Positions 38,020 to 64,000 of a stretch of 64,000 nucleotides of DNA are shown here, piece by piece. Source of the stretch: an uncultured Bacilli bacterium. GTDB taxonomy: Bacteria; Bacillota_I; Bacilli_A; RF39; UBA660. The first letter of the stretch is position 1, and every line of letters begins with the position of its first letter. The DNA is taken from assembly GCA_947624565.1 (NCBI GenBank), contig CANQKX010000002.1, positions 2,059-66,058 of the forward strand, read 5' to 3'. A model generated the notes under the pieces. The model was not told the origin of the DNA. It saw only the letters and a program-made list of their open reading frames with translations, and made no database searches. The translations under genes and the position numbers were made by a program.

Positions 38020-38020
38020 T

Positions 38021-43182: not shown

Positions 43183-43197
43183 TAGGAGATGGTTTAT

Positions 43198-46177: not shown

Positions 46178-46189
46178 AGGAGTGATAAA

Positions 46190-47464: not shown

Positions 47465-48012
47465 GAAGATACAAAAAAGATCAATTAAAAAAAATTAGAA
47501 TATATTTAATACTAGATTCTATGAAAAGAACTAAATATATTATTAAACATGATATTTTTAAAGAAGTAGGAAAAAATTTTTTCTTTCAACCAAGAAAAAT
47601 ACCTGCTGATCCAAAACTTATTAAGTTTCATAATAATGTTGTTGTAACAAGTGGAGTATTATTTATAACACACGATGTTACTGATTTTATGCTTAATAAT
47701 AGAGAAAATATAGATCATTTTTATAAATATAATTCAGGATGCATAGAAGTTATGAATAATGTTTTTATAGGTAGTAATTCAATAATTCTTCCAAATATAA
47801 AAATAGGTAATAATGTAATAATAGGTGCTGGATCTGTAGTTACAAAAGATGTTCCTGATAATTCAGTAATCGCAGGTAATCCTGCTAAAATAATATGTTC
47901 TTTTGATGATTATATAAATAAAAGAAAACAAAAAGATGAAAATTTAGTTGAATATACAAATGAAGAAACAGAAAACAAATTATGGGAACAATTTTATAAA
48001 AATAAAGATTAG
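47461..48012 (+). CDS. hexapeptide-repeat (LbH) sugar O-acetyltransferase
   Basis: Hexapeptide repeats ([45 protein letters not shown]). Confidence 0.7.
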
Positions 48013-48021
48013 GTGATTAAA

Positions 48022-49122
48022 TTGAAAAAGAAAATAATATTTATGTCATATAGTTTATGTTTTGGTGGAATAGAAAAAGCACTTATTGAATTATTAAACA
48101 AATTAGATTATTCAAAATATGATGTAACTTTATTGCTTGAGAAAAAAGAAGGAGATTTTTTAGCAAAATTAAATAAAAATGTAAAAATATATAATTATGA
48201 TATATGTAATAGTAAAAATGTATTATATAGAAAATTTAGAAATGGTTTAAAAAGGTTAAAATATTTAATGTTTAATTATATGAAATATGACTTTGCATGT
48301 TGTTATGCTACTTATTCAAAACCATGTAGTTTACTATCTTTAAAATCATCAAAAAATACTGCATTATATGTTCATGGTGATTATGTTAATGAGTTTAATG
48401 ATAATAAAAAAACTATAGATTTTTTTCAAAATCAAGATATAGAAAAATTTAAAAAAGTTATATTTGTATCCAATGAATCAAGAGATAATTTGATAAAATT
48501 AATGCCACAAATAACTAATAAAAGTTATGTGATAAATAATATTATTAATAATAGTGATATAATTAAATTATCTAATGAAAAAATAAATGAAACAAAAAGA
48601 AAAGATACAATATTATTGTTATATGTAGGAAGATTAGATGAAAAAGTTAAAAGAATATCTAAAATGATTTTAACTACAGAATTTTTAAATAAAAATAATA
48701 TACATACTGATTTTTGGATTATAGGTGATGGAGAAGATTATCAATTATATGAAAAAATTATAAAAGAAAAAAAATTGCAGAATAATGTTAAATTATTAGG
48801 TAGTAAAATAAATCCATATCCATATATAAAATTATGTGATTATTTAGTTATTACATCTGATCATGAAGGATTTCCAGTAACTTGTTTAGAAGCAATGTGT
48901 TTAAATAAAAATATTATTTCTACTATTAGTGTTAGCGATGATGAAATTGATATAAAAGATTATGCCTATATAATTTCTAAAGATGTAGATAAAATGAAAA
49001 ATGAAGTATTAAAAATAGTAAACTCAAAAAATAAATTAAAAGAAGTAGACTTTAATACAATAAACAAAAAAAGAATAAAAAAACTTGAAGCAATGTTTGA
49101 AGGTGAATTTGATGAAGTTTAG
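48022..49122 (+). CDS. GT4-family glycosyltransferase
   Basis: C-terminal GT4 E-x7-E-like region (HEGFPVTCLEAM). TTG start after an aggtga RBS (the ORF is listed from a GTG at 48013). Confidence 0.6.
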   Translation: MKKKIIFMSYSLCFGGIEKALIELLNKLDYSKYDVTLLLEKKEGDFLAKLNKNVKIYNYDICNSKNVLYRKFRNGLKRLKYLMFNYMKYDFACCYATYSKPCSLLSLKSSKNTALYVHGDYVNEFNDNKKTIDFFQNQDIEKFKKVIFVSNESRDNLIKLMPQITNKSYVINNIINNSDIIKLSNEKINETKRKDTILLLYVGRLDEKVKRISKMILTTEFLNKNNIHTDFWIIGDGEDYQLYEKIIKEKKLQNNVKLLGSKINPYPYIKLCDYLVITSDHEGFPVTCLEAMCLNKNIISTISVSDDEIDIKDYAYIISKDVDKMKNEVLKIVNSKNKLKEVDFNTINKKRIKKLEAMFEGEFDEV

Positions 49123-50023
49123 TTTAATAATACCTGTTTATAATGTTGAAAAATATTTAGAAAAATGTTTAAAAAGTATTTTAGATAATACATATAAAAA
49201 TTATGAAGTAATTATTGTTAATGATGGATCTACTGATAATAGTGAAAAAATAATAAAAGAAAATTTAAATAAATTTGAAGATATAACTTATATAAAACAA
49301 AAAAATAAAGGACTTAGTAGTGCAAGAAATGAAGGAGTAAAAAAATCTAAAGGAGATTATATTTGCTTTATAGATTCAGATGATTATATTCAAAAAGATA
49401 TGCTTGAAGTATTAAATAATAATTTAAAAGATAATCCTGATATTTTAAGATTTCAACTAAGAGAAGTATATAATGATAAGAGTGTAGATATAAATGAAAT
49501 CTCGTTTAATACAACAAATTCAAATAATGCCTTTAGTAAAATAGTTAAATATAAATATATAGAAATGTCCCAATTATATATATATAAAGCATCTTTCTAT
49601 AAGGAAAATAATTTTTCTTTTAAAGAGGGTATTTATCATGAAGATTTTGCATTAATACCTATTATAATAGCTAGTTGTAAAAGTATAAAATCAATTGATT
49701 ATATTGGATACAACTATGTTATTAGAGATGGAAGTATAATGAGAAGTAATGATAAAAATAAAATTATAAAGAAAATGGATGATAGTTTACTAGCATTTAA
49801 TCAAGCTATACAGATATTAAATAAAATGGAAAATAAAGATGAATTTAAAAATTTTTATGCAAATAGTATATTAGATAAATATTACTCTTTGGATAAAAAT
49901 TCAAAGAAAGAGTATAAAGAAAGAATAAAAAAATTAAATGTATTTAGTTATATGTCAACTAATAATTTTAAAAGAAAAATAAAAAAAATAATATATAAAA
50001 TAAAGTTTGGAGTAGGAATATGA
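49112..50023 (+). CDS. GT2-family glycosyltransferase
   Basis: FSLIIPVYNVEKYLEKCLKSIL...VNDGSTD...DSDD. Confidence 0.75.
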   Translation: MKFSLIIPVYNVEKYLEKCLKSILDNTYKNYEVIIVNDGSTDNSEKIIKENLNKFEDITYIKQKNKGLSSARNEGVKKSKGDYICFIDSDDYIQKDMLEVLNNNLKDNPDILRFQLREVYNDKSVDINEISFNTTNSNNAFSKIVKYKYIEMSQLYIYKASFYKENNFSFKEGIYHEDFALIPIIIASCKSIKSIDYIGYNYVIRDGSIMRSNDKNKIIKKMDDSLLAFNQAIQILNKMENKDEFKNFYANSILDKYYSLDKNSKKEYKERIKKLNVFSYMSTNNFKRKIKKIIYKIKFGVGI

Positions 50024-50967
50024 AAGTAAGTATAATTGTACCTGTATATAATACAAAAAAATATTTGAAAAAGTGTATAGATTCTATAGTAAATCAAACA
50101 TATAAAAATATTGAAATTATAATAATTAATGATTGTAGCAGTGAAAATATAGATGAAATTGTAAATCAATATGAAGATAAAAGAATTATATATATAAAAA
50201 ATACTGCAAATAAAGGTATTGGTTATAATAGAAATTTAGGAATAAAAAAATCTACAGGAAGTTATATTTGTTTTATAGATTCAGATGATTATATAAAAGA
50301 AGATTTTGTTGAAAAAATGTTAAATAAATGTACTAATGAAGATTTAGATATGTGTATTTGTGATTATAATTACGTATATGAAAAGAGTAATAAAATACAA
50401 AGTGTAAATCTTGCTAGTTTTGATACTACAAATTTAGATGAAAATCCAAAACTTTTAATTGATATTCCACTTGGGCCTTGTAATAAAATGTATAAAAAAT
50501 CTATGATTTTAAATCATAAGATAAAGTTTAGTGAGATTTTAAAATATGAAGATGTATCTTTTGTAGCATCTACACTTTATTATAGTGATAAAATTGGAAA
50601 AATAGATGAAGCATTAAATTATTTTCTAGTTCATGAAAATAGTCAAACTACTACTCGTGATGAAAAAGTATTTGATATATTTAAACAACTTGATATGGTT
50701 AAAGATATTTATAAGAATGATAAAAATGATTACTTAGATGAACTTATAATATCTATATTATTTAATTATAATATCCAGCAAAGATATCAAGAAAATAGTG
50801 AGATAGCAAATAAGTTTATAGATCATTCTTTTGAATATTTAAAGAAAAATAATATATCATATAAACAAAGTATGTATTTAATAAATAGACCTATATTAAA
50901 ATCATTTATAGAAAAAAGTAAATTTAGAACAAAGTTATATTGCTTTTTATACAGAAAATTAATATAA
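50020..50967 (+). CDS. GT2-family glycosyltransferase
   Basis: VSIIVPVYNTKKYLKKCIDSIVNQ...DSDD. Confidence 0.75.
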   Translation: MKVSIIVPVYNTKKYLKKCIDSIVNQTYKNIEIIIINDCSSENIDEIVNQYEDKRIIYIKNTANKGIGYNRNLGIKKSTGSYICFIDSDDYIKEDFVEKMLNKCTNEDLDMCICDYNYVYEKSNKIQSVNLASFDTTNLDENPKLLIDIPLGPCNKMYKKSMILNHKIKFSEILKYEDVSFVASTLYYSDKIGKIDEALNYFLVHENSQTTTRDEKVFDIFKQLDMVKDIYKNDKNDYLDELIISILFNYNIQQRYQENSEIANKFIDHSFEYLKKNNISYKQSMYLINRPILKSFIEKSKFRTKLYCFLYRKLI

Positions 50968-51054
50968 TTTTAGTTATTAATTTAATATATTTTATATTGT
51001 TTGTATCTATATGATATGATATAATGATAGTAATTAAAGTAGAGGAGAAGTAAA

Positions 51055-52002
51055 ATGAAAGAATTAATTACAGTAATTGTTCCTTGCTATAACGAGGAAG
51101 AATCTTTACCACTATTTTATGAAGAAATTATTAAAGTAGCAGATAAAATGTCAAAACAAGTTGATTTTGAATTTATTTTGGTAAATGATGGTAGCAAAGA
51201 TAAAACTTTAGAAATATCTAAAAATTTATCAAAAAAAGATAAAAGAGTAAAATATGTTTCTTTTTCTAGAAATTTTGGTAAGGAAGCTGGTATGCTTGCA
51301 GGGTTAGAATATGCAAAAGGAGATTATATAGCAATAATGGATGCTGATTTACAAGATCCACCATCTATGCTTCCAGAAATGTATAATATAATTAAAAAAG
51401 AAGGTTATGATTGTGTTGGTACTAGAAGAGTAACTAGAAAAGGAGAACCACCAATTAGAAGTTTTTTTGCAAGATGTTTTTATAAAATAATAAACAAAAT
51501 GTCAAAAGTAGAAATGGTAGATGGTGCGAGAGATTATAGACTTATGACTCGCCAAATGGTTAATTCTATTATATCTATGAAAGAGTATAATAGATATTCA
51601 AAGGGTTTATTTAGTTTTGTTGGTTATGATACTAAATGGTTAGAATATGAAAATATAGAAAGAGTTGCAGGTGAAACAAAATGGTCATTTTGGAAATTAT
51701 TTAAATATGCGATTGAAGGTATTGTTGCATTTTCAACAGTTCCATTATCAATATCAGCAATATTAGGTATTATTATGTGTTTGGTTGCATTTATTGCAAT
51801 AATTGTAATAATAATAAAAACATTGATGTTTGGAGATCCTGTTGGTGGTTGGCCAAGTATGGTTTGTATCATTTTATTTGTCAGTGGTATTCAACTATTT
51901 TGTATGGGAATAATAGGTCAGTATTTAGCAAAAACATATTTAGAAACTAAAAAAAGACCAGTGTATATTGTAAAAGAAACAAATCAAGATAAAATAGAAT
52001 AA
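51055..52002 (+). CDS. GtrB-like polyprenyl-phosphate glycosyltransferase (GT2 with C-terminal TM helices)
   Basis: ITVIVPCYNEEE...VNDGSKD...DADLQDPP, plus two C-terminal TM helices, as in GtrB/CsbB/ArnC. Confidence 0.7.
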   Translation: MKELITVIVPCYNEEESLPLFYEEIIKVADKMSKQVDFEFILVNDGSKDKTLEISKNLSKKDKRVKYVSFSRNFGKEAGMLAGLEYAKGDYIAIMDADLQDPPSMLPEMYNIIKKEGYDCVGTRRVTRKGEPPIRSFFARCFYKIINKMSKVEMVDGARDYRLMTRQMVNSIISMKEYNRYSKGLFSFVGYDTKWLEYENIERVAGETKWSFWKLFKYAIEGIVAFSTVPLSISAILGIIMCLVAFIAIIVIIIKTLMFGDPVGGWPSMVCIILFVSGIQLFCMGIIGQYLAKTYLETKKRPVYIVKETNQDKIE

Positions 52003-52026
52003 TTCTCATATGAGAATTTTTTTTAT
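52002..52026 (+). terminator. rho-independent terminator
   Basis: attctcatatgagaat palindrome followed by TTTTTTTT. Confidence 0.55.
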
Positions 52027-52127
52027 TAATATAATAGTTTGTTACATTTTATAAAATGTGATATAATGTACATGTTGGTGTTACATCAATTTAAGTATTA
52101 TATTTTTTTAGGGGGAAAATACAAATA

Positions 52128-52829
52128 ATGAAAAATGGGAAAATTATATTTGTATTATGTATAATTAATTTAGTTTTAACATTGTTTATTATTTTTAATG
52201 TAAGGACTAATGAATTATCATATAATACTATTAAAATTAATAAAAAAGATAATTTAACAGAAAAACTTAAAAATGAAAATTTTGTATTCTTAGGTGATTC
52301 AATTACTGATTGGTATCCTTTTGATGAATTATATGAGGATATTATGCCAATAATAAATAGTGGAAGAGCTGGGTATCAAACAAAAGATATTTTAGAAAAA
52401 TTACCTAGTTTAGTTTATGACTATAATCCAACTAAAGTATTTATATTAATAGGTACAAATGATTTAAAAGACGAAAATTTGACAACAGATAATATAGTCA
52501 ATAATATTAAAGAAATTATAGAAAAAATAAAAGAAAATAGACCTAATGCTAAGATATATCTTCAATCTATATATCCTATTAATAATACAGATAATGAAAA
52601 AATAGATAAAAAAGATGTTGGAATAAGAAAAAACGAGAATATAAAAGAAATTAATAAGAAATTAAAATCTTATTGTGAAGAAAATCAAATAGTGTATATA
52701 GATATGTATACTAATTTAATAGATAAAGATGGTAATTTAGATATAAAATATACTGAAGATGGTCTACATTTATCATCACTTGGTTACATAAAAGTTACTA
52801 GAATATTGTTACCGTACCTAGAAAATTAA
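52128..52829 (+). CDS. SGNH/GDSL hydrolase family protein
   Basis: GDSIT block I (FLGDSITDW), block III GTND, and a DGLH block V. Confidence 0.65.
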   Translation: MKNGKIIFVLCIINLVLTLFIIFNVRTNELSYNTIKINKKDNLTEKLKNENFVFLGDSITDWYPFDELYEDIMPIINSGRAGYQTKDILEKLPSLVYDYNPTKVFILIGTNDLKDENLTTDNIVNNIKEIIEKIKENRPNAKIYLQSIYPINNTDNEKIDKKDVGIRKNENIKEINKKLKSYCEENQIVYIDMYTNLIDKDGNLDIKYTEDGLHLSSLGYIKVTRILLPYLEN

Positions 52830-52845
52830 AAGGAGAATAAGTTGT

Positions 52846-53910
52846 ATGAAATCTAGAGTAAAATATTGTGATGCATTAAGAATGTTTGCTATTTTGTGTA
52901 TTGTATTAATACATGTATTTCCGTCATTTAGAGAACAATATTTAAATGTTAATCATAAATACTATTTTATATTAACATTTCTAGATTCTTTAACAAGAAC
53001 AGGAGTACCAATATTTTTTATGATTACAGGTGCTTTTATGTTAAGTAAAAAAAATAAATATTCATATAAAAATTTTTTAAGTAAACGATTATTAAAATTA
53101 TTTATACCATTTTTAATATTATCTTTATTTTATTATTTATATGATTGTTTTATTAATAAAAGTATTAAATTCTCATTAATATTATTTATAAAATTATTTA
53201 CAACAAATGGTATAAGATATCATTTTTGGTTTATGTATGTTATATTACTTATTTATTTGTTTATTCCATATTTGAGAATCTTTGTTCAAAATCTAAAAAG
53301 AGAAAATTTAAAAAATATAATAATATTGATTTTCATATTTGGTAATGTATTAGGAACAATTAATTTATTATGTAGCAAATATGATTTTAGCATATTTTCA
53401 AGTTTTATACTTCCAGATATATTAAGATATTTGAATTATTTATTTTTAGGATATTATCTATATAATTATGAAGTAAAAGTAAATAAAAGAAAAATAATAT
53501 ATGCTTTAGGAATTATATCTATTTGTTTAATGCCATTTGCGGATTCTATATTTATAGATAATGTTAAAAATGATATTATGTTAGAAGCTCAGTCAATGTT
53601 TGCTTTTGCCCCTTCTATTGCTATATTTATTCTTTTTAAATATAATTATTATAAATTAAAAATATCTAATAAAGTCAATAAATTTATATCTGATAGTGTA
53701 CCATTAATATTTTATATTTATATGATTCACATTTTTGTTTTAGAATGCATTGAAAATATAATATTTAAATATTACTACCCAAATAGATTTATTATGGTTA
53801 TTGTTATGATATGCATTATATTTTTATTTACAATTATTATTTCGTACATATTAGCTTATGTATTATATAAATTATTTAATTTTGTTTATAGTAAAGTTAT
53901 CAAAAATTAA
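52846..53910 (+). CDS. acyltransferase family 3 (membrane O-acyltransferase)
   Basis: About 10 TM segments and an AT3 N-terminus (DALRMFAILCIVLIH). Confidence 0.6.
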   Translation: MKSRVKYCDALRMFAILCIVLIHVFPSFREQYLNVNHKYYFILTFLDSLTRTGVPIFFMITGAFMLSKKNKYSYKNFLSKRLLKLFIPFLILSLFYYLYDCFINKSIKFSLILFIKLFTTNGIRYHFWFMYVILLIYLFIPYLRIFVQNLKRENLKNIIILIFIFGNVLGTINLLCSKYDFSIFSSFILPDILRYLNYLFLGYYLYNYEVKVNKRKIIYALGIISICLMPFADSIFIDNVKNDIMLEAQSMFAFAPSIAIFILFKYNYYKLKISNKVNKFISDSVPLIFYIYMIHIFVLECIENIIFKYYYPNRFIMVIVMICIIFLFTIIISYILAYVLYKLFNFVYSKVIKN

Positions 53911-53984
53911 ACTATACTTTTATCAATAAATATTATATAATATTTATTGATATAATAAATGTAGTAACAGAAGAGAGGTATATT

Positions 53985-54722
53985 ATGGATAGAAAAGTAT
54001 CTATAAATGTAAAAAATGTTAGTAAAACTTTTAAGTTATATTATGATAAAGCAAGTACTTTAAAAGAAAAATTATTGTTTTTTAAAAAAGATAATAAACC
54101 AGAGACTTTAGAAGTTTTAAAAAATATAAATATAAAAATATATGATGGAGAAAGTGTTGCTTTAATAGGTACAAATGGTAGTGGGAAAAGTACCTTATTA
54201 AAATTGATGACTAAAATAATATATCCTAATAAGGGTAAAATTGAGATAGATGGCAAATTAACATCATTACTTGAATTAGGCGCAGGGTTTCATATGGATT
54301 TTTCGGGAAGAGAAAATATATATTTTAATGCATCTATATTTGGATTAACTAAAAAACAGATAGATGAAAGATTAGATAAAATTATAGAATTTTCTGAGCT
54401 TGGGGAATTTATTGATAATCCTGTAAGGACATATTCTTCTGGTATGTATATGCGTTTAGCATTTTCTATAGCGATTAATGTAGATGCAGATATATTATTG
54501 ATAGATGAAATTTTATCTGTAGGAGATCAACATTACCAAGATAAGTGTTTTAATAAATTAATGGAATTAAAAGACTCTGGTAAAACAATAGTTATAGTAT
54601 CTCATAGTTTAGATTCAGTAAGAAAATTTTGTGATAGAAGTATTTGGCTTTATAATGGAGAAATTCGTATGGATGGGAATACTAATGATGTATTAGATGA
54701 ATACATCAAAGTTTGTAGGTGA
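53985..54722 (+). CDS. ABC transporter ATP-binding protein, TagH/Wzt-like polysaccharide exporter component
   Basis: Walker A GTNGSGKST, signature SSGMYMRLAF, and Walker B LLIDEIL. Confidence 0.75.
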   Translation: MDRKVSINVKNVSKTFKLYYDKASTLKEKLLFFKKDNKPETLEVLKNINIKIYDGESVALIGTNGSGKSTLLKLMTKIIYPNKGKIEIDGKLTSLLELGAGFHMDFSGRENIYFNASIFGLTKKQIDERLDKIIEFSELGEFIDNPVRTYSSGMYMRLAFSIAINVDADILLIDEILSVGDQHYQDKCFNKLMELKDSGKTIVIVSHSLDSVRKFCDRSIWLYNGEIRMDGNTNDVLDEYIKVCR

Positions 54723-54726
54723 AAAA

Positions 54727-55500
54727 ATGAAAGTATTTAAGGAGTTATATAAATATAGAGAATTATTAAAAAATAATATAAAAAAGGAAATTAGAGGAAA
54801 ATATAAAGGATCATGGTTAGGTGTTGTTTGGACATTTTTAAATCCATTATTAATGCTTTTAGTTTATTCAATTGTATTTCCTTATATATTGAGAGTAAAT
54901 GTAGAACATTATACAATATTTATGATGGTTGCATTAGTACCATGGACATTTTTTACAACAGCAGTACAAACAGGAACAGGAAGTGTAGTAGAAAATGGTG
55001 CAATACTTAAAAAAGTTTATTTTCCACGAGAAATAATACCAATATCAGTTGTTACAAGTGCGCTTATTAACTTTTTAATTACATGTATTATTATGTTTTT
55101 ATTTATATTATTTAGTGGTGTAGGATTTTCAGTTCATTTATTATTATTTCCAGGTTTAGTATTGATTCAATATATTATTACGCTTGCAATTGTATTTGTT
55201 TTATCAGCAATTAATGTGTATATAAGAGATGTTGATCATTTTGTAAGTATTATAATTACACTTGCATTTTATGTAACACCAATTGTATATAAAGCAGATA
55301 TGTTACCTGCCAAATTTAGTTGGGCGTTAAAAGTAAATCCTATGGCTCAGTTAATTGAGGGTTATAGAGCAATTTTATATAGCCATGAGATGCCAGATGT
55401 TAGAATGTTAGGTATTTGGGCAATAATTTCTTTAGTAATTTTAGTAATAGGTTATGTTATATTTAAAAGAAGCGAAAGAAAATTTGTGGAAGAATTATAA
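54727..55500 (+). CDS. ABC-2 type permease, TagG/Wzm-like
   Basis: Six TM segments and an ABC-2 N-terminal motif (LIKKEIRGKYKGSWLGVVW). Confidence 0.7.
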   Translation: MKVFKELYKYRELLKNNIKKEIRGKYKGSWLGVVWTFLNPLLMLLVYSIVFPYILRVNVEHYTIFMMVALVPWTFFTTAVQTGTGSVVENGAILKKVYFPREIIPISVVTSALINFLITCIIMFLFILFSGVGFSVHLLLFPGLVLIQYIITLAIVFVLSAINVYIRDVDHFVSIIITLAFYVTPIVYKADMLPAKFSWALKVNPMAQLIEGYRAILYSHEMPDVRMLGIWAIISLVILVIGYVIFKRSERKFVEEL

Positions 55501-55551
55501 AGTTATTATTTAATAACTTTTTTTAAAATATATAATTGAAAGGGATAAGTT

Positions 55552-56970
55552 ATGATAGATTATAGTTTAACTCCAGGTAGAAAATTAAAAGAAAATGCCA
55601 AACTTATAAATATTGAAAATCCAGTGATATCAATAATTACTCCATTTTATAATGGAGGAGAAACTTTAATGGAAACTGCAAATTGTGTTTTTAGTCAAAC
55701 ATATCCATATTTTGAATGGATTATAGTTGATGATGGATCTACTGATAAAAAATCAATAAAGCAATTAGATAAAGTTAAACAATTAGATAAAAGAGTAAAG
55801 ATATTTCATAAAAATAATGAGGGTCCATCAGTAGCGAGAGATTATGGAATAAGTAAAGCATGTAAGTTTAGTAAATATGTATTCTTTTTAGATTGTGATG
55901 ATATGATTGAAAATAATATGATTGAGTGCTTATATTGGACTTTACAAACACACAGTAATGCAAGTTTTGCTTATACTGCCGCAACTGTTTTTGGAGATTC
56001 GAATCATATATGGGAAAGATATTTAACTACAAAAATTGAAAAAAAGGAAAATGTAATAAATATAAGTAGTATGGTAAATAAATTAGATTTAATAGAAGTA
56101 GGATGTTTTGATATTAAAGAAAAAGGAATGTATGAAGATTGGAATTTATGGCTTAAATTACTTTCTGTAGGAAAGATACCAATAAGAATAAATGCTCCTT
56201 TATTTTGGTATAGATCAAGTAATGCTGGTGAATTTTCAAGAGCCAATATGAATCATGATAAAGCGATGAATGTTATAAATAAGACTGCATCTAATTTAAA
56301 AAATAATGTTCAAGTAATTCAATTTCCTAGATGTAATAAAGATTTAAATTCTTCATTAAATAATGATACTATATTACCTTATTATAAAAGGGGTATAAAG
56401 AAAACAATATTATTTATAATATCATCTATGAGTAATTCAAATGAAGATTTATTTAATATAAATTTAATAAAAGATTTGAATAAAAATAAATATAATATAA
56501 TTGTATTAACTACTACTCCAAAAGATAATGATTTAAGACAAGAATTTTATGAAAATTCAGATGAATGTTATGATATGTCTACATTTTTAGATAGAAAAGA
56601 TTATATAATTTTTACTGATTACATAATTAAATCAAGAAATGTTGATTATATATATATTGGTGATGATTGTTGTGCTAAAGCTATACTTTCGCATTTAGAA
56701 TCTAAAAACATTAATATTTGTATAATAAATAATGATAAAATTAATAATGGAGAAATTATTGAAGATAGTTTAAAGACTTTAAATGTAAAATCAAGTGACA
56801 CATACGAAACATATTTAAATGATTCATATAATCAATTTAAATCATATTGTAAACATTATAATGAAAAGTATAGAGTAAGATTTAAAGATATGTTAAAACA
56901 GGTTATTTATAAAATTAAAAAATTTATAAAGTTAATCTATGAAAAATATATATGTAAAAATAATAATTAG
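55552..56970 (+). CDS. GT2-family glycosyltransferase with an additional C-terminal domain
   Basis: ISIITPFYNGGETL...VDDGSTD...DCDD at the N-terminus, followed by about 250 aa of unassigned C-terminal sequence. Confidence 0.6.
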   Translation: MIDYSLTPGRKLKENAKLINIENPVISIITPFYNGGETLMETANCVFSQTYPYFEWIIVDDGSTDKKSIKQLDKVKQLDKRVKIFHKNNEGPSVARDYGISKACKFSKYVFFLDCDDMIENNMIECLYWTLQTHSNASFAYTAATVFGDSNHIWERYLTTKIEKKENVINISSMVNKLDLIEVGCFDIKEKGMYEDWNLWLKLLSVGKIPIRINAPLFWYRSSNAGEFSRANMNHDKAMNVINKTASNLKNNVQVIQFPRCNKDLNSSLNNDTILPYYKRGIKKTILFIISSMSNSNEDLFNINLIKDLNKNKYNIIVLTTTPKDNDLRQEFYENSDECYDMSTFLDRKDYIIFTDYIIKSRNVDYIYIGDDCCAKAILSHLESKNINICIINNDKINNGEIIEDSLKTLNVKSSDTYETYLNDSYNQFKSYCKHYNEKYRVRFKDMLKQVIYKIKKFIKLIYEKYICKNNN

Positions 56971-57020
56971 ATATTTAAATATCTAATTTTTTAGTTTATA
57001 ATTATATTAGAGGTGATGTT

Positions 57021-58028
57021 ATGAGTATACTTGTTACTGGTGGTGCAGGATATATTGGCTCACATACATGTGTAGAACTTTTAAATAATGGTTATGAACT
57101 AGTAGTTATTGATAATTTTTCAAATAGTAAACCAGAAGCAATAGATTCAATTAAAAAAATAACTGGGAAAGATTTTAAATTTTACAATATTGATTATTTA
57201 GATAAAAATTTATTAGAAAAAGTATTCCAAGAGAATAATATTGATTCGGTAATTAATTTTGCTGGATATAAAGCAGTAGGAGAGTCTGTTGAAAAACCAA
57301 TTGAATATTATATAAATAATGTATCAGGTGCATTAATTTTACTTGATGTAATGAAAAAATATAATGTTAAGAAATTTGTGTTTTCATCATCTGCAACTGT
57401 ATATGGAGATCCAGAAATTATTCCAATAACAGAAGATTGTAAAATAGGAGGTACAACAAATCCATATGGTACTTCCAAATTATTTATAGAGCAAATACTT
57501 CAAGATATATATAAATCTGATAATACATGGGATATTGCAATACTTAGATATTTTAATCCAGTAGGAGCTCATTCTAGTGGACTTATTGGAGAAGATCCTA
57601 AAGGTATACCAAATAATTTGATGCCATATATTGCAAAAGTTGCTAATAAAGAATTAAAAGAATTATCAGTATTTGGTAATGATTATAATACTAAAGATGG
57701 AACAGGTGTGAGAGATTATATACATGTTGTAGATCTTGCCAAAGGTCATTTGTTAGCACTTGATAAATTAAATAAAGAGAAAAAAGGAATATTTATATAT
57801 AATTTAGGAACAGGAATAGGTTATAGTGTACTTGATATGGTTAATACTTATTCAAAAGTTAATAATGTAGATATTCCGTACAAAATTGCCCCAAGAAGAG
57901 CAGGTGATATTGCATCTTGTTATTCTGATCCAAGTAAAGCAAAAAAAGAGTTAGGATTTGAATGTACAAAGACACTTGAAGATATGTGTAAAGATTCATA
58001 TAATTTTATAAAAAATCATGAAAGGTAA
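57021..58028 (+). CDS. galE: UDP-glucose 4-epimerase
   Basis: [13 protein letters not shown] Rossmann motif and YxxxK (YGTSK); 335 aa. Confidence 0.85.
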
Positions 58029-58032
58029 AAAT

Positions 58033-58506
58033 ATGAAAAAAAGAGTATTATTTATATCATCAACAGGTGGACACCTAAAAGAATTATTACAATTAAAGAG
58101 TTTATTTAATAAATATGATTCATATATAATAACTGAAAAAACAAAATCTACGATAAGCATGAAAGATGAATATAAAGATAAAATGGGGTTTCTAATATTT
58201 GGTACAAAAGATTACCCACTTACATATCCTTTTAAATTAATTGCTAATTGTTTTATAAGTTTATATTATTTTATAAAATTTAGACCAAAATATATAGTTA
58301 CAACAGGAACTCATACTGCAGGTCCAATGTGTTGCATAGGAAAAATATTTAGATGTAAAGTTATATATATTGAAACTATGGCAAATTGTAATACAAAAAC
58401 AATAACAGGTAGATTATTATATCATATTGCAGATTTATTTATTGTTCAGTGGCAAAGTATGCTTAAACTTTATCCAAAAGCAGTATATGGTGGATTTATA
58501 TTTTAG
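58033..58506 (+). CDS. Alg14-like (PssD/Cps14F-type) glycosyltransferase membrane-association subunit
   Basis: RVLFISSTGGHLKELLQL N-terminus is typical of Alg14-like proteins. Confidence 0.55.
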   Translation: MKKRVLFISSTGGHLKELLQLKSLFNKYDSYIITEKTKSTISMKDEYKDKMGFLIFGTKDYPLTYPFKLIANCFISLYYFIKFRPKYIVTTGTHTAGPMCCIGKIFRCKVIYIETMANCNTKTITGRLLYHIADLFIVQWQSMLKLYPKAVYGGFIF

Positions 58507-58515
58507 GAGGTTTAT

Positions 58516-58995
58516 ATGATATTTGTAACATTAGGAACACAAGATAAAGGATTTCCTAGATTATTAGAGGCAATTGAAAAACAAATACAAAATGGGAATA
58601 TTAAAGAGAAGGTAATTGTTCAAGCAGGACTAACAGAGTATGAATCAAAAAATATGGAAATTTATAAACTAATGCCAATGCAGCAATTTGATAAATATGT
58701 AAAAGAATGTGATTTACTTATTACTCATGCTGGAGTAGGTTCTATTATGAGTGGGTTAAAAAATAATAAAAAAGTAATCGCAGCAGCCAGATTAAAAGAA
58801 TATGGTGAACATAATAATAATCATCAAGTTCAAATAGCAACTGAATTTTCTAATCTTGGATATATACTATATTTAGAAGATTTTGACAAATTAGGTGAAT
58901 TACTTAAAAAATCTAAAACATTTAAACCTAGAAAATATGAAAATAATAATAAAAATTTTGTAAAAATAATAGAAAATTTTATAGATAACAATTAA
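58516..58995 (+). CDS. Alg13-like (Cps14G/EpsF-type, GT28 C-terminal domain) glycosyltransferase catalytic subunit
   Basis: MIFVTLGTQDKGFPRLL...ITHAGVGSIM. Confidence 0.55.
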   Translation: MIFVTLGTQDKGFPRLLEAIEKQIQNGNIKEKVIVQAGLTEYESKNMEIYKLMPMQQFDKYVKECDLLITHAGVGSIMSGLKNNKKVIAAARLKEYGEHNNNHQVQIATEFSNLGYILYLEDFDKLGELLKKSKTFKPRKYENNNKNFVKIIENFIDNN

Positions 58996-59009
58996 AAGAG
59001 GTGTTTACC

Positions 59010-60203
59010 ATGAAAAAAATAACAATTTTATGTTTACATCTAGGATATGGAGGAATAGAAGTAGCAGTTACTAATTTAGCTAATATGCTTATAGATAAAT
59101 ATGATGTTAATATTGTATCTATTTATAATCTATATGATAAAACAATGTATAAATTAGATGAAAATGTTAATGTTAATTATTTAATAAATAGTGATATAGC
59201 ATTAAGAGTAGATTCTTATAAAAAGAATTTAATCCATTTTCATTTTATAACTTTATTTAAAGAGTTATATAATGATTATTTAAAAAAAGGTAAGATATTT
59301 AAGTTATTTTCAGATACTTTTAATAGTTTAAAAATAATAAAACTAAAGAAAAAATTAATGATAGATTATTTAAAAACATGTGATAGTGATTTAATAATAT
59401 CTACAAGAATTGAAATAACTGAAATATTAAATAAAAATTATAAAGGTAAAGCAAAACTAATATCATGGGAACATTCTCATCATCATAATGATCAAAAATA
59501 TATAAATGGAGTTATTAAATCTTTAGATAATATTGATTATTTTATGCCTGTTTCTAAAAAATTAACTGATTTTTATAAAAATAAAATTAAATCAAATACA
59601 CAAGTTATATATGCACCATTATGTGTTGATTATATACCTGAAAAAGAAGCAAAAAAAACTAAAAAGAATATTGTTGCAATTGGTAGATTATCAAAAGAAA
59701 AAGGATTTTTAGATTTAATAGATGTATTTAATATAATTATAAGTAAAGATAATGAATGTAGACTTCATATTATCGGTGATGGATTTGAGAAAAATAATAT
59801 AGAAAATAAAATAAATGAATTAAATTTAAACAATTATGTAACTTTGTATGGATATAAGGATAAAAGTTTTATAAGAGAAAAATTAAATGATATGAGTTTA
59901 TATTTATTAACATCATATGAAGAATCGTTTGGATTAGTAATATTAGAAGCAAGTTCTTTTGGTATACCAGTAATAGCATTTGATAGCGCAGAAGGTGCAA
60001 CTGAAATAATAAATAATGATATAGATGGTTATTTAATTAGTAACAGAGATAAAAATTTAATGGCAGAAAAAAGTATAGAATTATTAAATAATAAGAAAAA
60101 ACTTGCTAAATTTGGTAATGAAGCAAGATTAAAGGCAATAAAATATTCATATGATTCAGTAAAAGAACAGTGGTTAAAAATAATAGATAATATATTAAAA
60201 TAA
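59010..60203 (+). CDS. GT4-family glycosyltransferase
   Basis: EESFGLVILEASSFGIPVIAFD GT4 motif. Confidence 0.7.
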   Translation: MKKITILCLHLGYGGIEVAVTNLANMLIDKYDVNIVSIYNLYDKTMYKLDENVNVNYLINSDIALRVDSYKKNLIHFHFITLFKELYNDYLKKGKIFKLFSDTFNSLKIIKLKKKLMIDYLKTCDSDLIISTRIEITEILNKNYKGKAKLISWEHSHHHNDQKYINGVIKSLDNIDYFMPVSKKLTDFYKNKIKSNTQVIYAPLCVDYIPEKEAKKTKKNIVAIGRLSKEKGFLDLIDVFNIIISKDNECRLHIIGDGFEKNNIENKINELNLNNYVTLYGYKDKSFIREKLNDMSLYLLTSYEESFGLVILEASSFGIPVIAFDSAEGATEIINNDIDGYLISNRDKNLMAEKSIELLNNKKKLAKFGNEARLKAIKYSYDSVKEQWLKIIDNILK

Positions 60204-60213
60204 GGAGTAAAAT

Positions 60214-60612
60214 ATGAAAAAATTATTTATGCAAATAATAAAATTTGGTTTAGTAGGAGTAATAGCTACAGTTATAGATTATGTATTGTTATATGTGTTA
60301 ACAGAGTTTTTTAACATATATTATTTAATATCATCAATAATATCTTTTTCAGTTTCTGTAATATTTAATTATATTGCAAGTGTAAGATGGGTATTTGATG
60401 TAGATAAAAATAAAAATAGTAAAGTAAAGGAATTAGTTGTATTTATAATACTAAGTGTAATAGGTTTAGGAATAAATCAATTATTCATGTGGTTATTAAG
60501 TGATAAATTAAATATTTATTATATGATTTCAAAATTATTTGCAACTGTAGTTGTGATGTGTTGGAATTTTATTACAAGAAAATTATTTTTAGAAAATAAT
60601 AAAAAAGATTAA
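60214..60612 (+). CDS. GtrA-family membrane protein (polyprenyl-phosphate-sugar flippase-like)
   Basis: 132 aa with four TM segments and a GtrA-like N-terminus (IKFGLVGVIATVIDYVLLYVL). Confidence 0.65.
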   Translation: MKKLFMQIIKFGLVGVIATVIDYVLLYVLTEFFNIYYLISSIISFSVSVIFNYIASVRWVFDVDKNKNSKVKELVVFIILSVIGLGINQLFMWLLSDKLNIYYMISKLFATVVVMCWNFITRKLFLENNKKD

Positions 60613-60628
60613 TCATTAATCTTTTTTT
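60601..60628. terminator. bidirectional terminator between convergent genes
   Basis: aaaa-aagattaat-c-attaatctt-ttttt. Confidence 0.5.
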
Positions 60629-61641
60629 AATATACTAATATAAAATTCTTTCCACATTTTATAAATATTATCTTTACTATAAAAATTAGATATATATTTA
60701 GCAACTTCTATTTGTTCATTATATAGTTTATTATTATTTTTTAATTCCTTTATAATTTTAGCAAACTCATCATTATTACTTCCTTTTAAATACTTTTTAA
60801 ATAATATATCTTCGTATAATTCTAAATCTCTAAGTAATATTGGAGTTTGTGTACTAACTGCTTCAAGTATAGTCATAGGAAATAATTCATTATAAGATGG
60901 AACAAATAATAAATCAGATGCATTAAATAAATCATTCATTTCATCTCTAGGTATAATACCTAAAAATTTAACATTTTTAGGAGGATTTTCCATTAATTTT
61001 TTTAATTCATTATGTCCATCAGTAATTGCACCAAAACTAAATCCACCGGCCCATATGAAGGTTATATCAGGTAATTTTTTTGCAACTTCTGCAAAATCCA
61101 TAACACCCTTTCTATTTTGTACTTGACCTGCGCCAAGTACTACAAAATCATTTTCATTTATATTATACTTTTTTCTTATTTGTTTGATTTCTTTTTTGCT
61201 TTTTTTATAAAATTTTTCTTTTGACACAAAATTAGGTATATAAGTTATTTTATTTTTATCAAGACCAGCTTTAACTAAATCTTTTTTAAATATAGGATTT
61301 ACAACAACAAGATGATCAGCACTTTTATAAAAACTAATAACATATTTTTTAAATATTTTAAATATAGGTTTAGGAAGTTTTATTGATCCATCTAATGTAT
61401 CAGGTAAAAAATGTACATATGCAACTGTAGGATTTTTTGATAATTTTAATTTTAAGTAATTTCTAGGTTCTACAGTATGTGCATGTATAATATCATATTT
61501 AGTACCTTTATTTAAATAAATTTCAAAGTCATCTTTTCCATCTTCTTTTAATAATTTCATAAGTTCAAGATAAGCACTTCCAACACCTTGTCCGTCAACA
61601 GAATCAGCCATTGAAAGCATATTAATTTTAATTTTATTCAT
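60616..61641 (-). CDS. GT4-family glycosyltransferase
   Basis: N-terminal G-rich (SVDGQGVGSAYLEL), C-terminal GT4 core (LFPMTILEA), and an aaggag RBS on the minus strand. Confidence 0.65.
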   Translation of the reverse strand: MNKIKINMLSMADSVDGQGVGSAYLELMKLLKEDGKDDFEIYLNKGTKYDIIHAHTVEPRNYLKLKLSKNPTVAYVHFLPDTLDGSIKLPKPIFKIFKKYVISFYKSADHLVVVNPIFKKDLVKAGLDKNKITYIPNFVSKEKFYKKSKKEIKQIRKKYNINENDFVVLGAGQVQNRKGVMDFAEVAKKLPDITFIWAGGFSFGAITDGHNELKKLMENPPKNVKFLGIIPRDEMNDLFNASDLLFVPSYNELFPMTILEAVSTQTPILLRDLELYEDILFKKYLKGSNNDEFAKIIKELKNNNKLYNEQIEVAKYISNFYSKDNIYKMWKEFYISILKKD

Positions 61642-61740
61642 AAAAAACTCCTTGTTTATAAAATTATATCATATTTATTTATATATATTATATTTTTTTT
61701 ATAAATTGAATATAATATAATTGAATAATTGCCAAAAAAT

Positions 61741-61769
61741 TTGACTAAAATGGTTTTTTTTGATAGAAT
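61741..61769 (+). promoter_or_regulatory. consensus sigma-A promoter (TTGACT-17-TAGAAT)
   Basis: TTGACT, then the 17-nt spacer aaaatggttttttttga, then TAGAAT. The predicted transcription start is at about 61777. Confidence 0.55.
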
Positions 61770-61777
61770 TATTCTCG

Positions 61778-62100
61778 TATGAAGGGTGCAGTATCCTAGT
61801 TGATACATCTATTACGAAGACGAGCCTAAAAATTCGTTAAAGAGCATACCTGTGAAACTTCTTGTGCTTGCTTAAATCGCCCAGATTTGGGTGGGTGCTG
61901 GGAGGTAAGTTATTTGGGAAACTTATAATGGCATATAAGAAGAACCCAAATAGCGTGGAGACTTAATATTGTGCTAAACCCTTGATTTAGTACGAATTAA
62001 GATTAAACCTACTTTGAGGCGAAAGCTTTGGGTAGTGTAGCTTGCCTTGAGTGAATATCTTGGGATTATAGAACTAATGTAGATATTTTTGGCCAAAAAT
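61778..62100 (+). ncRNA. candidate structured non-coding RNA or long structured 5' leader (identity unknown)
   Basis: Sharp local rise in GC (roughly 40% or more, against about 25% background) over about 320 nt with no credible ORF. Multiple local stems (cccag..ctggg; atttggg...cccaaat) and gaggcgaaagc. It lies immediately downstream of a consensus promoter and ends at the palindrome tttttggccaaaaa. Confidence 0.4.
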
Positions 62101-62378
62101 GTTTATATGATATTGCTATATGAAATTGTGTTTGCAAAAAAGACTAGTAATAGATAAAATATCAGGGAGGAAATCTCCTAGGCTGTATGTCAATATAAGA
62201 TTGCAGTGCGTACTAAGTGGCAATCAAGTCATATATTTGGAAACAATATATACATTTATTAAAGGGGAACCGCCTTTTGGTAACGAAAGGTTTAAATGTG
62301 GGAAATCCTACTTGACCTATGACGCAAAGTTTATTATGTTGGTACCAATCATATTTTTTTTATTTTAAGGATGGATTT

Positions 62379-62918
62379 ATGAAAAAGAGTAAAACTAAAA
62401 AAAATGATAGATTAAGATGGTTATTTACTGTATGTATACTATCTTTTATACTTTCAATTATATTCTCATGTGCATCAGAAACTATAATTCCAAATATTAA
62501 TATATTATTTGGGATATTAGTTATAATATTATTTATTTTAATAAGTATAATATTTGATATGATAGGAGTTGCAATAACTGCAGCAGAAGAAACTCCATTT
62601 CATTCTATGGCTTCTAAAAAAGTAAAAGGAAGTAAACATTCAGTAATATTATTAAAAAATTCAGATAAATTAGCATCTATATGTAATGATGTAATTGGTG
62701 ATGTATGTGGTGTAGTTAGTGGTAGTGCAGGGATGCTTGTTGCATCATCAATTTCTACAAAATTTAATTTAAATGCATCACTTGTTGTTCTTTTAGTAAC
62801 AGCAATTATCGCATCACTTACAATAACAGGTAAAGCATTTGGTAAAACAAAAGCAATTAAAAATTCAGAAGCAATTACATTAAAAGTTGGAAAATTTTTA
62901 AATTTTTTTAAAAAATAA
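62379..62918 (+). CDS. small polytopic membrane protein, function unknown
   Basis: Four TM segments. aaggatgg RBS before the ATG at 62379 (the ORF is listed from 62319). Confidence 0.45.
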   Translation: MKKSKTKKNDRLRWLFTVCILSFILSIIFSCASETIIPNINILFGILVIILFILISIIFDMIGVAITAAEETPFHSMASKKVKGSKHSVILLKNSDKLASICNDVIGDVCGVVSGSAGMLVASSISTKFNLNASLVVLLVTAIIASLTITGKAFGKTKAIKNSEAITLKVGKFLNFFKK

Positions 62919-63082
62919 GTATAAAATAATTTTTATAGATAACAATAATAATGTCATATGAAAAATATGACGATAAGTTTGAAGAACCTAATTATTATTA
63001 GGTTCTTTTTTATTTTAATATTTACTTAAATATGTAAAAATGTTAAAATTATATTGTATATAAATGATAAAGTGAGGTAGTT

Positions 63083-64000
63083 ATGGAAAAAAAAGAGTAT
63101 GTATCATTAGAAGAATATAATAAATTGTTAGATAAATACAATGATGTAAGTGAAAAATTATGGCAACTTGAACATAGAAAAGTAGTTAGAGGAGCAAATA
63201 AACTTATAAGAATTGCTAAAAAAATGAAATTAGATAAAGTAGCAAAATTTATAAAAAGAGGATTTAATGGATTTTTTAGAATAGTAGGTATACCTAAAAT
63301 ATTTTTTAATAATCTTTTTGTAAGAAATATAAATAAGTTAACATTGCCAGAATATAAATATTTTAAATTTAAAAAAAATAGAATAGAAAATTATTATTTA
63401 GATACTTCTAAAATTAAACATTCATGTGAGAAAGATTTAGTAACTATTGTACTTCCAATATATAATGGAGATAAATTAATGAGTCAAACGATAGATAGTA
63501 TACTAAATCAAACGTATAAAAAATTTGAATTAATAATTGTAAATGATGGCTCAACAGATAAAACATTAAAAATAGCAGAGGAATATGCAAAAAAAGACTC
63601 AAGAATAAAAGTAATAAATCAAGAAAATCAGAAATTACCACAATCAATTGCAAATGGATTTAAAGTAGCAAATGGAGAGTATTCAATGTGGGTAGGAGCA
63701 GATGATATACTTCATAATAATTGTATAGAGTCTATGCTAAATGATTTAAAAAGCGACGAAAAAGTTGATTTTGTATATCCAAATGTTAGATTAATTGATG
63801 AAAATAATAAAATTATTACTAGCAATAAGTGGTATGCAAGCAATAAAGAACATCCAGAATATGTAATGCTTCCTAAAAATATGCTTGAATTTTGCGAAGT
63901 AAAGAATAATTATATTGCGCCAATATGTATGTATAAATCAATAGTTGTAAAAACATTATCTGATTTTTCAAAAAATAGATTTACTGTTGAAGATTATGAT
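63083..64000 (+). CDS. GT2-family glycosyltransferase with an N-terminal extension, 3'-partial (runs off the window)
   Basis: Manual translation from the ATG at 63083 (gaggtag RBS) has no stop up to the window end. VTIVLPIYNGDKLMSQTIDSILNQ...VNDGSTD...GADD are GT2 motifs. Confidence 0.65.
   Translation, partial: MEKKEYVSLEEYNKLLDKYNDVSEKLWQLEHRKVVRGANKLIRIAKKMKLDKVAKFIKRGFNGFFRIVGIPKIFFNNLFVRNINKLTLPEYKYFKFKKNRIENYYLDTSKIKHSCEKDLVTIVLPIYNGDKLMSQTIDSILNQTYKKFELIIVNDGSTDKTLKIAEEYAKKDSRIKVINQENQKLPQSIANGFKVANGEYSMWVGADDILHNNCIESMLNDLKSDEKVDFVYPNVRLIDENNKIITSNKWYASNKEHPEYVMLPKNMLEFCEVKNNYIAPICMYKSIVVKTLSDFSKNRFTVEDYD

What the first reader, a model, noticed from the sequence alone, without database searches (positions are those of the whole stretch)
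61741..62378. Consensus-promoter-driven GC-rich structured RNA candidate embedded in the glycosyltransferase cluster
A near-perfect TTGACT-17-TAGAAT promoter fires into about 320 nt whose GC content is far above the surrounding AT-rich DNA. This stretch is densely self-complementary (cccag/ctggg, atttggg/cccaaat, and other stems), has no plausible ORF, and ends in the palindrome tttttggccaaaaa. A further AT-richer 280 nt follows (containing gacgcaaag, ggggaaccgcc and ggtaccaa elements) before a small 4-TM membrane protein gene. This is either an independent sRNA or a large riboswitch/attenuator leader. I could not match it to RNase P, tmRNA, SRP RNA, a T-box, the C. perfringens VR-RNA (no VirR boxes), or the common riboswitch cores, so it may be an undescribed RNA family. 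It sits between two blocks of glycosyltransferase genes, which points to a role in cell-surface polysaccharide regulation.
Basis: seen in the sequence. Interest (0 to 1): 0.75.

Follow-up and report, generated by a model that had tools for sequence, protein, structure and literature searches.

The report
OLE RNA with its oapA gene
The "unknown structured RNA" is a full-length copy of the already described OLE (ornate, large, extremophilic) RNA, followed as usual by the gene for its membrane partner OapA, so the feature is real but not a new RNA family.

Summary
Window 61741-62378 holds a promoter followed by about 600 nt of structured, non-coding, relatively GC-rich RNA, and a small membrane-protein gene comes next.

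The RNA is not undescribed. Rfam family RF01071 (OLE RNA) matches 61767-62364 (+) end to end, model positions 1-616 of 616, at 400.2 bits against a gathering score of 50 (E about 1e-114). It is the only Rfam hit in the 64 kb window.

The downstream 179-aa protein has only a DUF21/CNNM transmembrane domain, which fits OapA. In 78 of 80 genome loci that encode a homologue of this protein, an OLE RNA lies directly upstream on the same strand.

The TTTTTGGCCAAAAA palindrome is the internal L9.3 GGCC loop, which forms a dimer kissing contact in the cryo-EM structure. It is not a 3' end.

The promoter is conserved in relatives. The unit reads promoter, ole, oapA, terminator.

The glycosyltransferase neighbourhood is confined to a few close relatives (5 of 80 loci), and the module sits elsewhere in another close relative. 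A role in polysaccharide regulation is therefore not supported.

Verdict: already known, a new genomic instance only. Interest is low.

The parts
61741..61769 (+). Sigma-70-type promoter of the ole-oapA unit: TTGACT, 17-nt spacer, TAGAAT, with a TG extension.
   Evidence: 10 of 12 matches, the best site in the region; the -35 box (AAAATTTGAC) is invariant, and the -10 box (TAnAAT) and the spacing are conserved in L003, L001, L002 and L007 while the flanks diverge. The upstream gene is on the opposite strand, so ole needs its own promoter.
61767..62364 (+). OLE RNA gene (Rfam RF01071). The transcript probably starts near 61776, and the first conserved block, GGGUGCAGUAUCCUAGU, starts at 61784.
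   Evidence: 400.2 bits against a gathering score of 50, E about 1e-114 to 1e-116, model 1-616 of 616, not truncated; 153 consensus pairs across 9 homologues, 68 with compensatory changes. MFE z-score -4.81. GC 0.348 against 0.228.
62086..62099 (+). Tip of the long P9.3 hairpin.
   Evidence: One search aligns it to the consensus uuGGCCaa hairpin loop. GGCC is invariant in 9 homologues. Kretsch et al. 2025 (PMC12286853) show that L9.3 GGCC forms the symmetric intermolecular kissing loop (bridge B3) of the OLE dimer.
62240..62243 (+). GAAA (GNRA) tetraloop aligned to the P13 hairpin, the primary OapB-binding site in H. halodurans OLE.
   Evidence: One search aligns it to consensus ccGGugACgg. 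The requirement for a GNRA loop and a bulge in P13 comes from Yang et al. 2021 (PMC7936274). The assignment here is by alignment only.
62280..62283 (+). GUAA (GNRA) tetraloop aligned to the P14.1 hairpin, the weaker second OapB site.
   Evidence: One search aligns it to consensus cccGGcgACggg. PMC7936274.
62367..62374 (+). Ribosome-binding site AAGGATGG for oapA, which starts 14 nt after the end of the OLE model. No terminator was found between ole and oapA.
   Evidence: Sequence. One search finds no terminator-like site between 61770 and 62980.
62379..62918 (+). oapA: a 179-aa protein with only a DUF21/CNNM transmembrane domain, the membrane partner of OLE RNA.
   Evidence: Pfam PF01595 CNNM at 28.1 bits, just under the 28.4 cut-off, covering residues 47-178; 1177 homologues of similar length, most of the listed ones carrying PF01595; weak match to the transmembrane part of archaeal CorB (7m1t, 7m1u). 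OLE lies directly upstream in 78 of 80 loci encoding homologues; hydrophobic segments.
62981..63008 (+). Intrinsic terminator (12-bp stem followed by a T run) that closes the ole-oapA unit.
   Evidence: the only terminator-like site in 61400-63200, against 0.3 expected from shuffles.

Best explanation
Window 61741-63008 is a self-contained two-gene unit: promoter, ole (OLE RNA, about 590 nt), oapA (179-aa membrane protein), terminator.

Shown here: family membership of the RNA, conservation of its structure, and its tight linkage to the oapA-type gene.

Taken from published work on Halalkalibacterium halodurans and on Clostridium OLE RNAs, and inferred to apply here:
- The RNA folds into an ornate structure and dimerises, in part through the GGCC kissing loop of L9.3.
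- It is bound and brought to the cell membrane by OapA, a transmembrane-only relative of CorB/CNNM/MpfA divalent-cation transporters.
- It also binds OapB at its GNRA tetraloops and OapC at a kink turn.
- The resulting ribonucleoprotein particle helps the cell cope with stress: cold, short-chain alcohols, excess Mg2+ and poor carbon sources.

The biochemical activity of the RNA is still unknown in the field.

In this genome the unit is most likely transcribed from its own promoter as one ole-oapA transcript. This differs from H. halodurans, where it is part of a long housekeeping operon.
For: - Rfam RF01071 matches end to end at 400.2 bits against a gathering score of 50, and it is the only Rfam hit in the 64 kb.
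- The same family is found directly upstream of the homologous protein gene in 11 of 12 relatives scanned with Rfam.
- A profile built from 9 homologues finds it there in 78 of 80 loci.
- 68 of 153 predicted pairs show compensatory changes.
- The fold is more stable than any of 100 shuffles, z = -4.81.
- The ORF inside the RNA is not conserved.
- The downstream protein is a DUF21/CNNM-type transmembrane domain with no cytoplasmic domains. This matches the published description of OapA (PMC12265935).
- The conserved GGCC loop and both GNRA tetraloops are present.
- The promoter is phylogenetically conserved, and the only terminator follows oapA.
Against: Nothing contradicts membership. The limits are these:
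- No expression data exist for this organism, so the transcript ends, and whether ole and oapA share one transcript, are inferred from sequence.
- The Pfam CNNM score of the protein is 0.3 bits below the curated cut-off.
- No direct comparison with an experimentally characterised OapA sequence was possible with these tools.
- No oapB or oapC gene was recognised in the window. Those genes need not be linked to ole.
- The function is extrapolated from distant species.
Confidence: 0.97

Rival explanations
1. The RNA is a cis-acting leader (riboswitch or attenuator) that controls expression of the downstream membrane-protein gene.
For: It lies directly upstream of oapA on the same strand, with no terminator in between in this window. 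A U-rich tract follows its 3' end. In relatives L002 and L007 a hairpin plus T run lies between OLE and oapA, so read-through into oapA could be modulated there.
Against: The RNA belongs to a family described as an abundant, stable RNA that forms a particle with OapA (PMC12265935). No riboswitch family matched at E up to 1. A length of 600 nt with about 25 helices is far beyond any known leader. There is no alternative terminator/antiterminator arrangement next to the ribosome-binding site in this window.
Confidence: 0.03
2. The RNA is a regulator dedicated to the surrounding cell-surface polysaccharide gene cluster.
For: In the window it lies between GT4/GtrA genes and a GT2 gene, inside a glycan-synthesis cluster of about 20 kb. 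The closest relative, L003, has it after the same GalE-Alg14-Alg13-GT4 block. The literature lists cell-wall biosynthesis among the processes whose genes neighbour ole (PMC12265935).
Against: Only 5 of 80 related loci have any homologue of these glycosyltransferases within about 6 kb. In the close relative L001 the same module sits between an LtaS-type gene block and a YgjP-SpoU-RimM-TrmD block. In the window those two blocks lie 23-36 kb away. The invariant partner is oapA, not any glycosyltransferase. The unit has its own promoter and terminator.
Confidence: 0.05
3. The region is a chance GC-rich patch or a degraded gene remnant with no function.
For: None beyond the presence of short ORFs.
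Against: Full-length covariance-model match, compensatory base changes, conserved synteny with oapA in 78 of 80 loci, and a conserved promoter.
Confidence: 0

Closest known systems
OLE (ornate, large, extremophilic) RNA, Rfam RF01071. Puerta-Fernandez et al. 2006; reviewed in PMC12265935; cryo-EM in PMC12286853.
   Same: About 600 nt. All conserved sequence blocks and helices align end to end. The GGCC L9.3 loop and the GNRA loops of P13 and P14.1 are present. oapA lies immediately downstream. The host is an anaerobe-type, low-GC member of the Bacillota.
   Different: Very AT-rich for the family: 35% GC, scoring 400 bits against 542 bits for a Clostridiaceae copy. It is apparently transcribed from its own conserved promoter as a two-gene unit, not from a long housekeeping operon as in H. 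halodurans. It is embedded in a surface-glycan gene cluster. These are differences of context, not of kind.
OapA (OLE-associated protein A). Block et al. 2011; PMC12265935.
   Same: A small protein (179 aa) consisting only of a DUF21/CNNM-like transmembrane domain. It has a basic N-terminus and C-terminus, and it is encoded directly after ole.
   Different: It was not compared residue by residue with the H. halodurans or C. botulinum protein. RNA binding was not tested.
CorB / CNNM / MpfA divalent-cation transporters (PDB 7m1t, 7m1u).
   Same: The transmembrane (DUF21) domain is weakly similar.
   Different: OapA lacks the CBS-pair and CorC/HlyC cytoplasmic domains. The literature proposes that OLE RNA may stand in for them (PMC12265935).
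Other large ornate bacterial RNAs (GOLLD, ROOL, raiA motif).
   Same: Large, highly structured, homo-oligomerising non-coding RNAs of unknown biochemistry.
   Different: They are unrelated in sequence and structure. None matched here.

Membership tests
OLE RNA (Rfam RF01071) | Covariance-model score above the curated gathering threshold, over the full length of the model. | tested here: met
   400.2 bits against 50, model 1-616 of 616, no truncation, E about 1e-114.
OLE RNA (Rfam RF01071) | Conserved multi-helix secondary structure supported by covariation. | tested here: met
   RNAalifold on 9 homologues gives 153 pairs, 68 with compensatory double changes, and a covariation term of -17.4 kcal/mol. 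MFE z-score is -4.81.
OLE RNA (Rfam RF01071) | The oapA gene lies immediately downstream, the most common neighbour. | tested here: met
   A 179-aa DUF21-type gene starts 14 nt after the RNA. OLE lies upstream of its homologues in 78 of 80 loci and in 11 of 12 by Rfam.
OLE RNA (Rfam RF01071) | Palindromic L9.3 loop (GGCC or a covarying palindrome) used for dimerisation. | tested here: met
   GGCC at 62091-62094 sits at the tip of a long hairpin and is invariant in 9 homologues. The role comes from PMC12286853. Dimerisation itself was not tested.
OLE RNA (Rfam RF01071) | GNRA tetraloops on P13 and P14.1 (OapB binding sites). | tested here: met
   GAAA at 62240-62243 and GUAA at 62280-62283 align to the consensus GNRA loops (PMC7936274).
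OLE RNA (Rfam RF01071) | The host is an anaerobic or extremophilic member of the Bacillota. | tested here: inconclusive
   The closest loci are uncultured gut or rumen Bacilli, Erysipelotrichaceae and Mollicutes-type MAGs, and the window has 22.8% GC. This is consistent, but the organism itself was not identified.
OLE RNA (Rfam RF01071) | An abundant, stable, membrane-localised RNA. | not testable with these tools
   This needs RNA-seq, a Northern blot or imaging.
OapA | A small protein of about four transmembrane helices, homologous to the CNNM/DUF21 transmembrane domain and lacking CBS and CorC domains. | tested here: met
   PF01595 over residues 47-178 at 28.1 bits (cut-off 28.4), with no other domain. 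Most of the listed homologues carry PF01595 and are 171-190 aa long. There is a weak match to the CorB transmembrane region. Hydropathy at threshold gave three strong hydrophobic stretches spanning residues 11-71 and 127-155. A weaker glycine-rich segment around residues 105-125 was judged by eye from the sequence, not from that threshold.
OapA | Binds OLE RNA cooperatively and localises it to the membrane. | not testable with these tools
   This requires biochemistry (Block et al. 2011, cited in PMC12265935).
Riboswitch / attenuator leader | A match to a known ligand-binding aptamer, or mutually exclusive terminator and antiterminator structures ahead of the regulated gene. | tested here: not met
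   No other Rfam family matched at E up to 1 in 61600-62500. No terminator lies between the RNA and oapA.

The most novel reading that the evidence does not exclude
In this lineage of very AT-rich gut Bacilli, ole-oapA has become an autonomous module with its own promoter and terminator, and it tends to land next to cell-envelope genes: a surface-glycan cluster here and in L003, an LtaS-type gene in L001. If that placement is selected for, it would fit the recent proposal that OLE spans the membrane and that its outer domain could contact cell-wall polymers. It would also point to wall glycopolymers as a partner or signal of the OLE particle.
Probability: 0.07. Interest if true: 0.45.

Novelty: already known. 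Interest (0 to 1): 0.08.

Why it matters
As a discovery it does not matter. OLE RNA has been known since 2006, is in Rfam, and has been catalogued in hundreds of species. It does show that the first-stage reader can pick out a real large structured RNA from raw sequence.

This copy has some minor value as a specimen. It is a compact, very AT-rich OLE with a clear promoter of its own, a two-gene architecture and a cell-envelope neighbourhood. That could help people studying how ole-oapA is expressed and why it neighbours envelope genes.

Tried and rejected
- I looked for any other Rfam family in 61600-62500 with permissive filters (E up to 1). There was none.
- I checked whether the 82-aa ORF at 62120-62368 inside the RNA could be a gene. 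It is interrupted by stops in all eight relatives, so I rejected it.
- I tested whether the glycosyltransferase context is a general property of ole-oapA loci. Only 5 of 80 loci show it, so I rejected it as a family-wide link.
- NCBIfam gave no meaningful name for the downstream protein.
- The PDB sequence search gave only a marginal CorB match at E 0.12.
- I looked for an oapB-like (KOW) small protein among the unassigned small ORFs of the window, 25602-25895 and 32184-32471. Neither has a Pfam domain. This check was not exhaustive, and oapB need not be linked to ole.
- I considered the palindrome TTTTTGGCCAAAAA as a 3' end or terminator. It is rejected, because it aligns to the internal P9.3/L9.3 hairpin.
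- The organism was not identified to species. I left out a cluster-member look-up because it would not change the verdict.

Full report
**1. What is in the sequence**

It is the best promoter-like site in 61400-63200.
- The following 598 nt have 34.8% GC, against a window mean of 22.8%. No other stretch of that size in the 64 kb is as GC-rich.
- As RNA the stretch folds to -159.1 kcal/mol, against -132.4 +/- 5.6 for dinucleotide shuffles (z = -4.81).

**2. What it is**

A scan of the whole window against Rfam 15 gives exactly one hit above threshold. RF01071, OLE (ornate large extremophilic) RNA, matches 61767-62364 on the plus strand at 400.2 bits (gathering score 50), E = 4e-114. The match covers model positions 1-616 of 616 without truncation. 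A permissive rescan of 61600-62500 finds nothing else at E up to 1.

The conserved blocks all align at high posterior probability: GGUGCAGUAUCCUAGU, CGCCCAG, UGCUGG, AAUGGCAU, CGUGGAGAC, GAUUAAACCU, GUGUAGC, UGCAAAA, GAGGAAAUCUCCUAG, GAUUGCAGUGCGUACUAAGUGG, UAAAGGGGAACCGCC, GGGAAAUCCUAC, GACCUAUGACGCAAAGUUUA.

**3. Independent support from relatives**

The downstream protein has 1177 homologues in the protein collection. The 120 listed are mostly 171-190 aa long, and most carry Pfam PF01595 (CNNM/DUF21 transmembrane domain).

- Eighty genome loci encoding homologues were fetched. The closest (69-80% amino-acid identity) are uncultured Bacilli and Erysipelotrichaceae-type MAGs from guts and rumen, not Clostridium.
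- Rfam finds a full-length OLE directly upstream of the homologue in 11 of 12 loci scanned.
- An nhmmer profile built from nine OLE copies finds one upstream on the same strand in 78 of 80 loci.
- RNAalifold on the nine-sequence alignment (77% mean identity) predicts 153 pairs, of which 68 show compensatory double changes.
- The 82-aa ORF inside the 3' half of the RNA (62120-62368) is broken by stop codons in every relative.

The RNA is thus a conserved, structured, non-coding gene tightly linked to the downstream protein gene.

**4. The partner gene**

The 179-aa product of 62379-62918 is preceded by AAGGATGG at 62367-62374.

- It matches only the CNNM/DUF21 transmembrane domain, over residues 47-178 at 28.1 bits, 0.3 bits under the curated cut-off.
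- It has a marginal match to the transmembrane part of archaeal CorB in the PDB.
- It has a basic N-terminus and strongly hydrophobic segments.

This is the published description of OapA: a small membrane protein of about four helices, related to the transmembrane domain of MpfA/CorB-type transporters, lacking their CBS and CorC domains, and encoded immediately downstream of ole (PMC12265935).

**5.

- The palindrome TTTTTGGCCAAAAA (62086-62099) is not the end of the RNA. It aligns to the tip of the long P9.3 hairpin, whose consensus loop is uuGGCCaa, and GGCC is invariant in the nine homologues. In the cryo-EM structure of the OLE dimer this L9.3 tetranucleotide forms a symmetric intermolecular kissing loop (bridge B3). 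Across the family it covaries between palindromes (GGCC, GAUC, AGCU) (PMC12286853).
- The "ggggaaccgcc" and "gacgcaaag" elements belong to the conserved 3' domain.
- That domain also carries two GNRA tetraloops, GAAA at 62240-62243 and GUAA at 62280-62283. They align to P13 and P14.1, the OapB-binding hairpins (PMC7936274).

**6. Transcription unit**

The upstream gene is divergent, so ole needs its own promoter.

- The -35 box with its upstream A-tract (AAAATTTGAC) is invariant, and the -10 box (TAnAAT) and the spacing are conserved, in L003, L001, L002 and L007. The surrounding sequence diverges.
- No terminator-like site lies between the promoter and the end of oapA. The only one in the region is a 12-bp hairpin plus T run at 62981-63008, just after oapA.

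The most likely unit is therefore promoter, ole, oapA, terminator. This step is inferred from sequence, not shown. In H. halodurans, by contrast, ole lies within a long polycistronic housekeeping operon (PMC12265935).

**7. How it most likely works**

This is inferred from the literature, not tested here.

- OLE RNA folds and dimerises.
- It is bound cooperatively by OapA and taken to the membrane.
- It also binds OapB, OapC and bS21.
- The particle is needed for tolerance of cold, short-chain alcohols, excess Mg2+ and poor carbon sources in H. halodurans (PMC12265935, PMC10898510, PMC9723947).
- Recent structural work suggests that the RNA may even span the membrane (PMC12265935).
- Its biochemical activity remains unknown.

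**8. The genomic context argument**

The window from about 44.8 kb to its end is a surface-glycan biosynthesis cluster. It encodes a PMT_2 protein, an O-antigen-ligase-like protein, an acetyltransferase, GT4 and GT2 enzymes, a GDSL protein, an acyltransferase-3, an ABC-2 exporter pair, GalE, split Alg14/Alg13, GT4, GtrA, GT4 and GT2.

The neighbourhood is not a property of the RNA family, however.

- Only 5 of 80 related loci have any homologue of these glycosyltransferases within about 6 kb.
- The nearest relative, L003, shares the upstream GalE-Alg14-Alg13-GT4 block. Downstream it has a polysaccharide deacetylase and BipA instead.
- In L001 the same ole-oapA module lies between a GGDEF-BrkB-LtaS block and a YgjP-SpoU-RimM-TrmD-aaRS block. 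In the window those blocks sit at 33.0-38.7 kb and 25.6-29.9 kb.

The module has therefore moved relative to its neighbours among close relatives, keeping only oapA. That argues against a dedicated role in regulating this glycan cluster. The literature does list cell-wall biosynthesis among the several processes whose genes tend to neighbour ole, so even that loose association is not new.

**9. Verdict**

It is a new genomic instance of an RNA family known since 2006 and present in Rfam. Novelty: already known. Interest: low.

The only mildly unusual aspects are the very low GC content for an OLE RNA, the conserved promoter of its own with a compact two-gene architecture, and the envelope-gene neighbourhood in this small clade.

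Noticed in passing
L005 5100-6516; L034 1-997: Two loci encode close OapA homologues (73% and 47% identity) with no OLE RNA upstream or anywhere in the fetched flanks. In L005 a protein-coding gene runs right up to the oapA start. These could be orphan oapA genes, or ole could lie elsewhere in those genomes.
   Followed up: partly
L009, L011, L014, L017, L018, L020, L023, L036, L039, L044, L052, L059, L061, L066, L074 (e.g. L014 5505-5985): A subgroup of Bacilli and Mollicutes-type MAGs carries a shortened OLE of about 480 nt, scoring about 210 bits in Rfam. It lacks the middle of the profile, roughly positions 180-355. This is probably the J6/7-P8 variation mentioned in the literature.
   Followed up: partly
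L009 11608-11700, L014 11604-11696, L017 11584-11676 (minus strand): A PGK RNA motif (RF03040, about 82 bits) lies about 5.6 kb downstream of ole-oapA in three of the short-OLE loci.
   Followed up: no
L002 about 5935-5975; L007 about 5937-5975: In these two relatives a hairpin followed by a T run (AACCAGTTTTATTTTAAAACTGGTTTTT in L002) lies between OLE and oapA. The window, L003 and L001 lack it. OLE may therefore end at an intrinsic terminator in some relatives and be read through into oapA in others.
   Followed up: partly
window 62120-62368 (+): An 82-aa ORF lies entirely within the 3' half of OLE RNA and could be mis-annotated as a hypothetical protein. It is not conserved in any of the eight relatives.
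   Followed up: yes
window 25602-29932 and 33004-38671, compared with L001: The gene blocks that flank ole-oapA in relative L001 are GGDEF-BrkB-LtaS-unknown on one side and unknown-YgjP-SpoU-RimM-TrmD-aaRS on the other. In the window both blocks are present but lie 23-36 kb from ole, so the ole-oapA module or its surroundings have been rearranged between close relatives.
   Followed up: yes
window 41188-44655 (+): Two large adjacent proteins (664 and 488 aa) have cadherin-like beta-sandwich domains, and the first also has a type I dockerin. The region is the second most GC-rich part of the window (about 0.31-0.32). A dockerin in a host of this kind (very AT-rich, gut Bacilli-like) is unusual.
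   Followed up: no
window 44795-64000: A surface-glycan (teichoic-acid- or O-antigen-like) cluster of about 20 kb. It encodes PMT_2, an O-antigen-ligase-like protein, a hexapeptide acetyltransferase, GT4, three GT2 enzymes, GDSL, acyltransferase-3, an ABC-2 exporter pair, GT2, GalE, split Alg14/Alg13, GT4, GtrA, a reverse-strand GT4, then ole-oapA, then GT2. GtrA and the reverse GT4 are absent from the syntenic position in L003.
   Followed up: partly
window 33004-35067 (+): A 687-aa protein combines a periplasmic solute-binding (SBP_bac_3) domain with a GGDEF diguanylate cyclase domain. It lies upstream of BrkB-like and LtaS-like genes and is conserved in L001 (75% identity).
   Followed up: no
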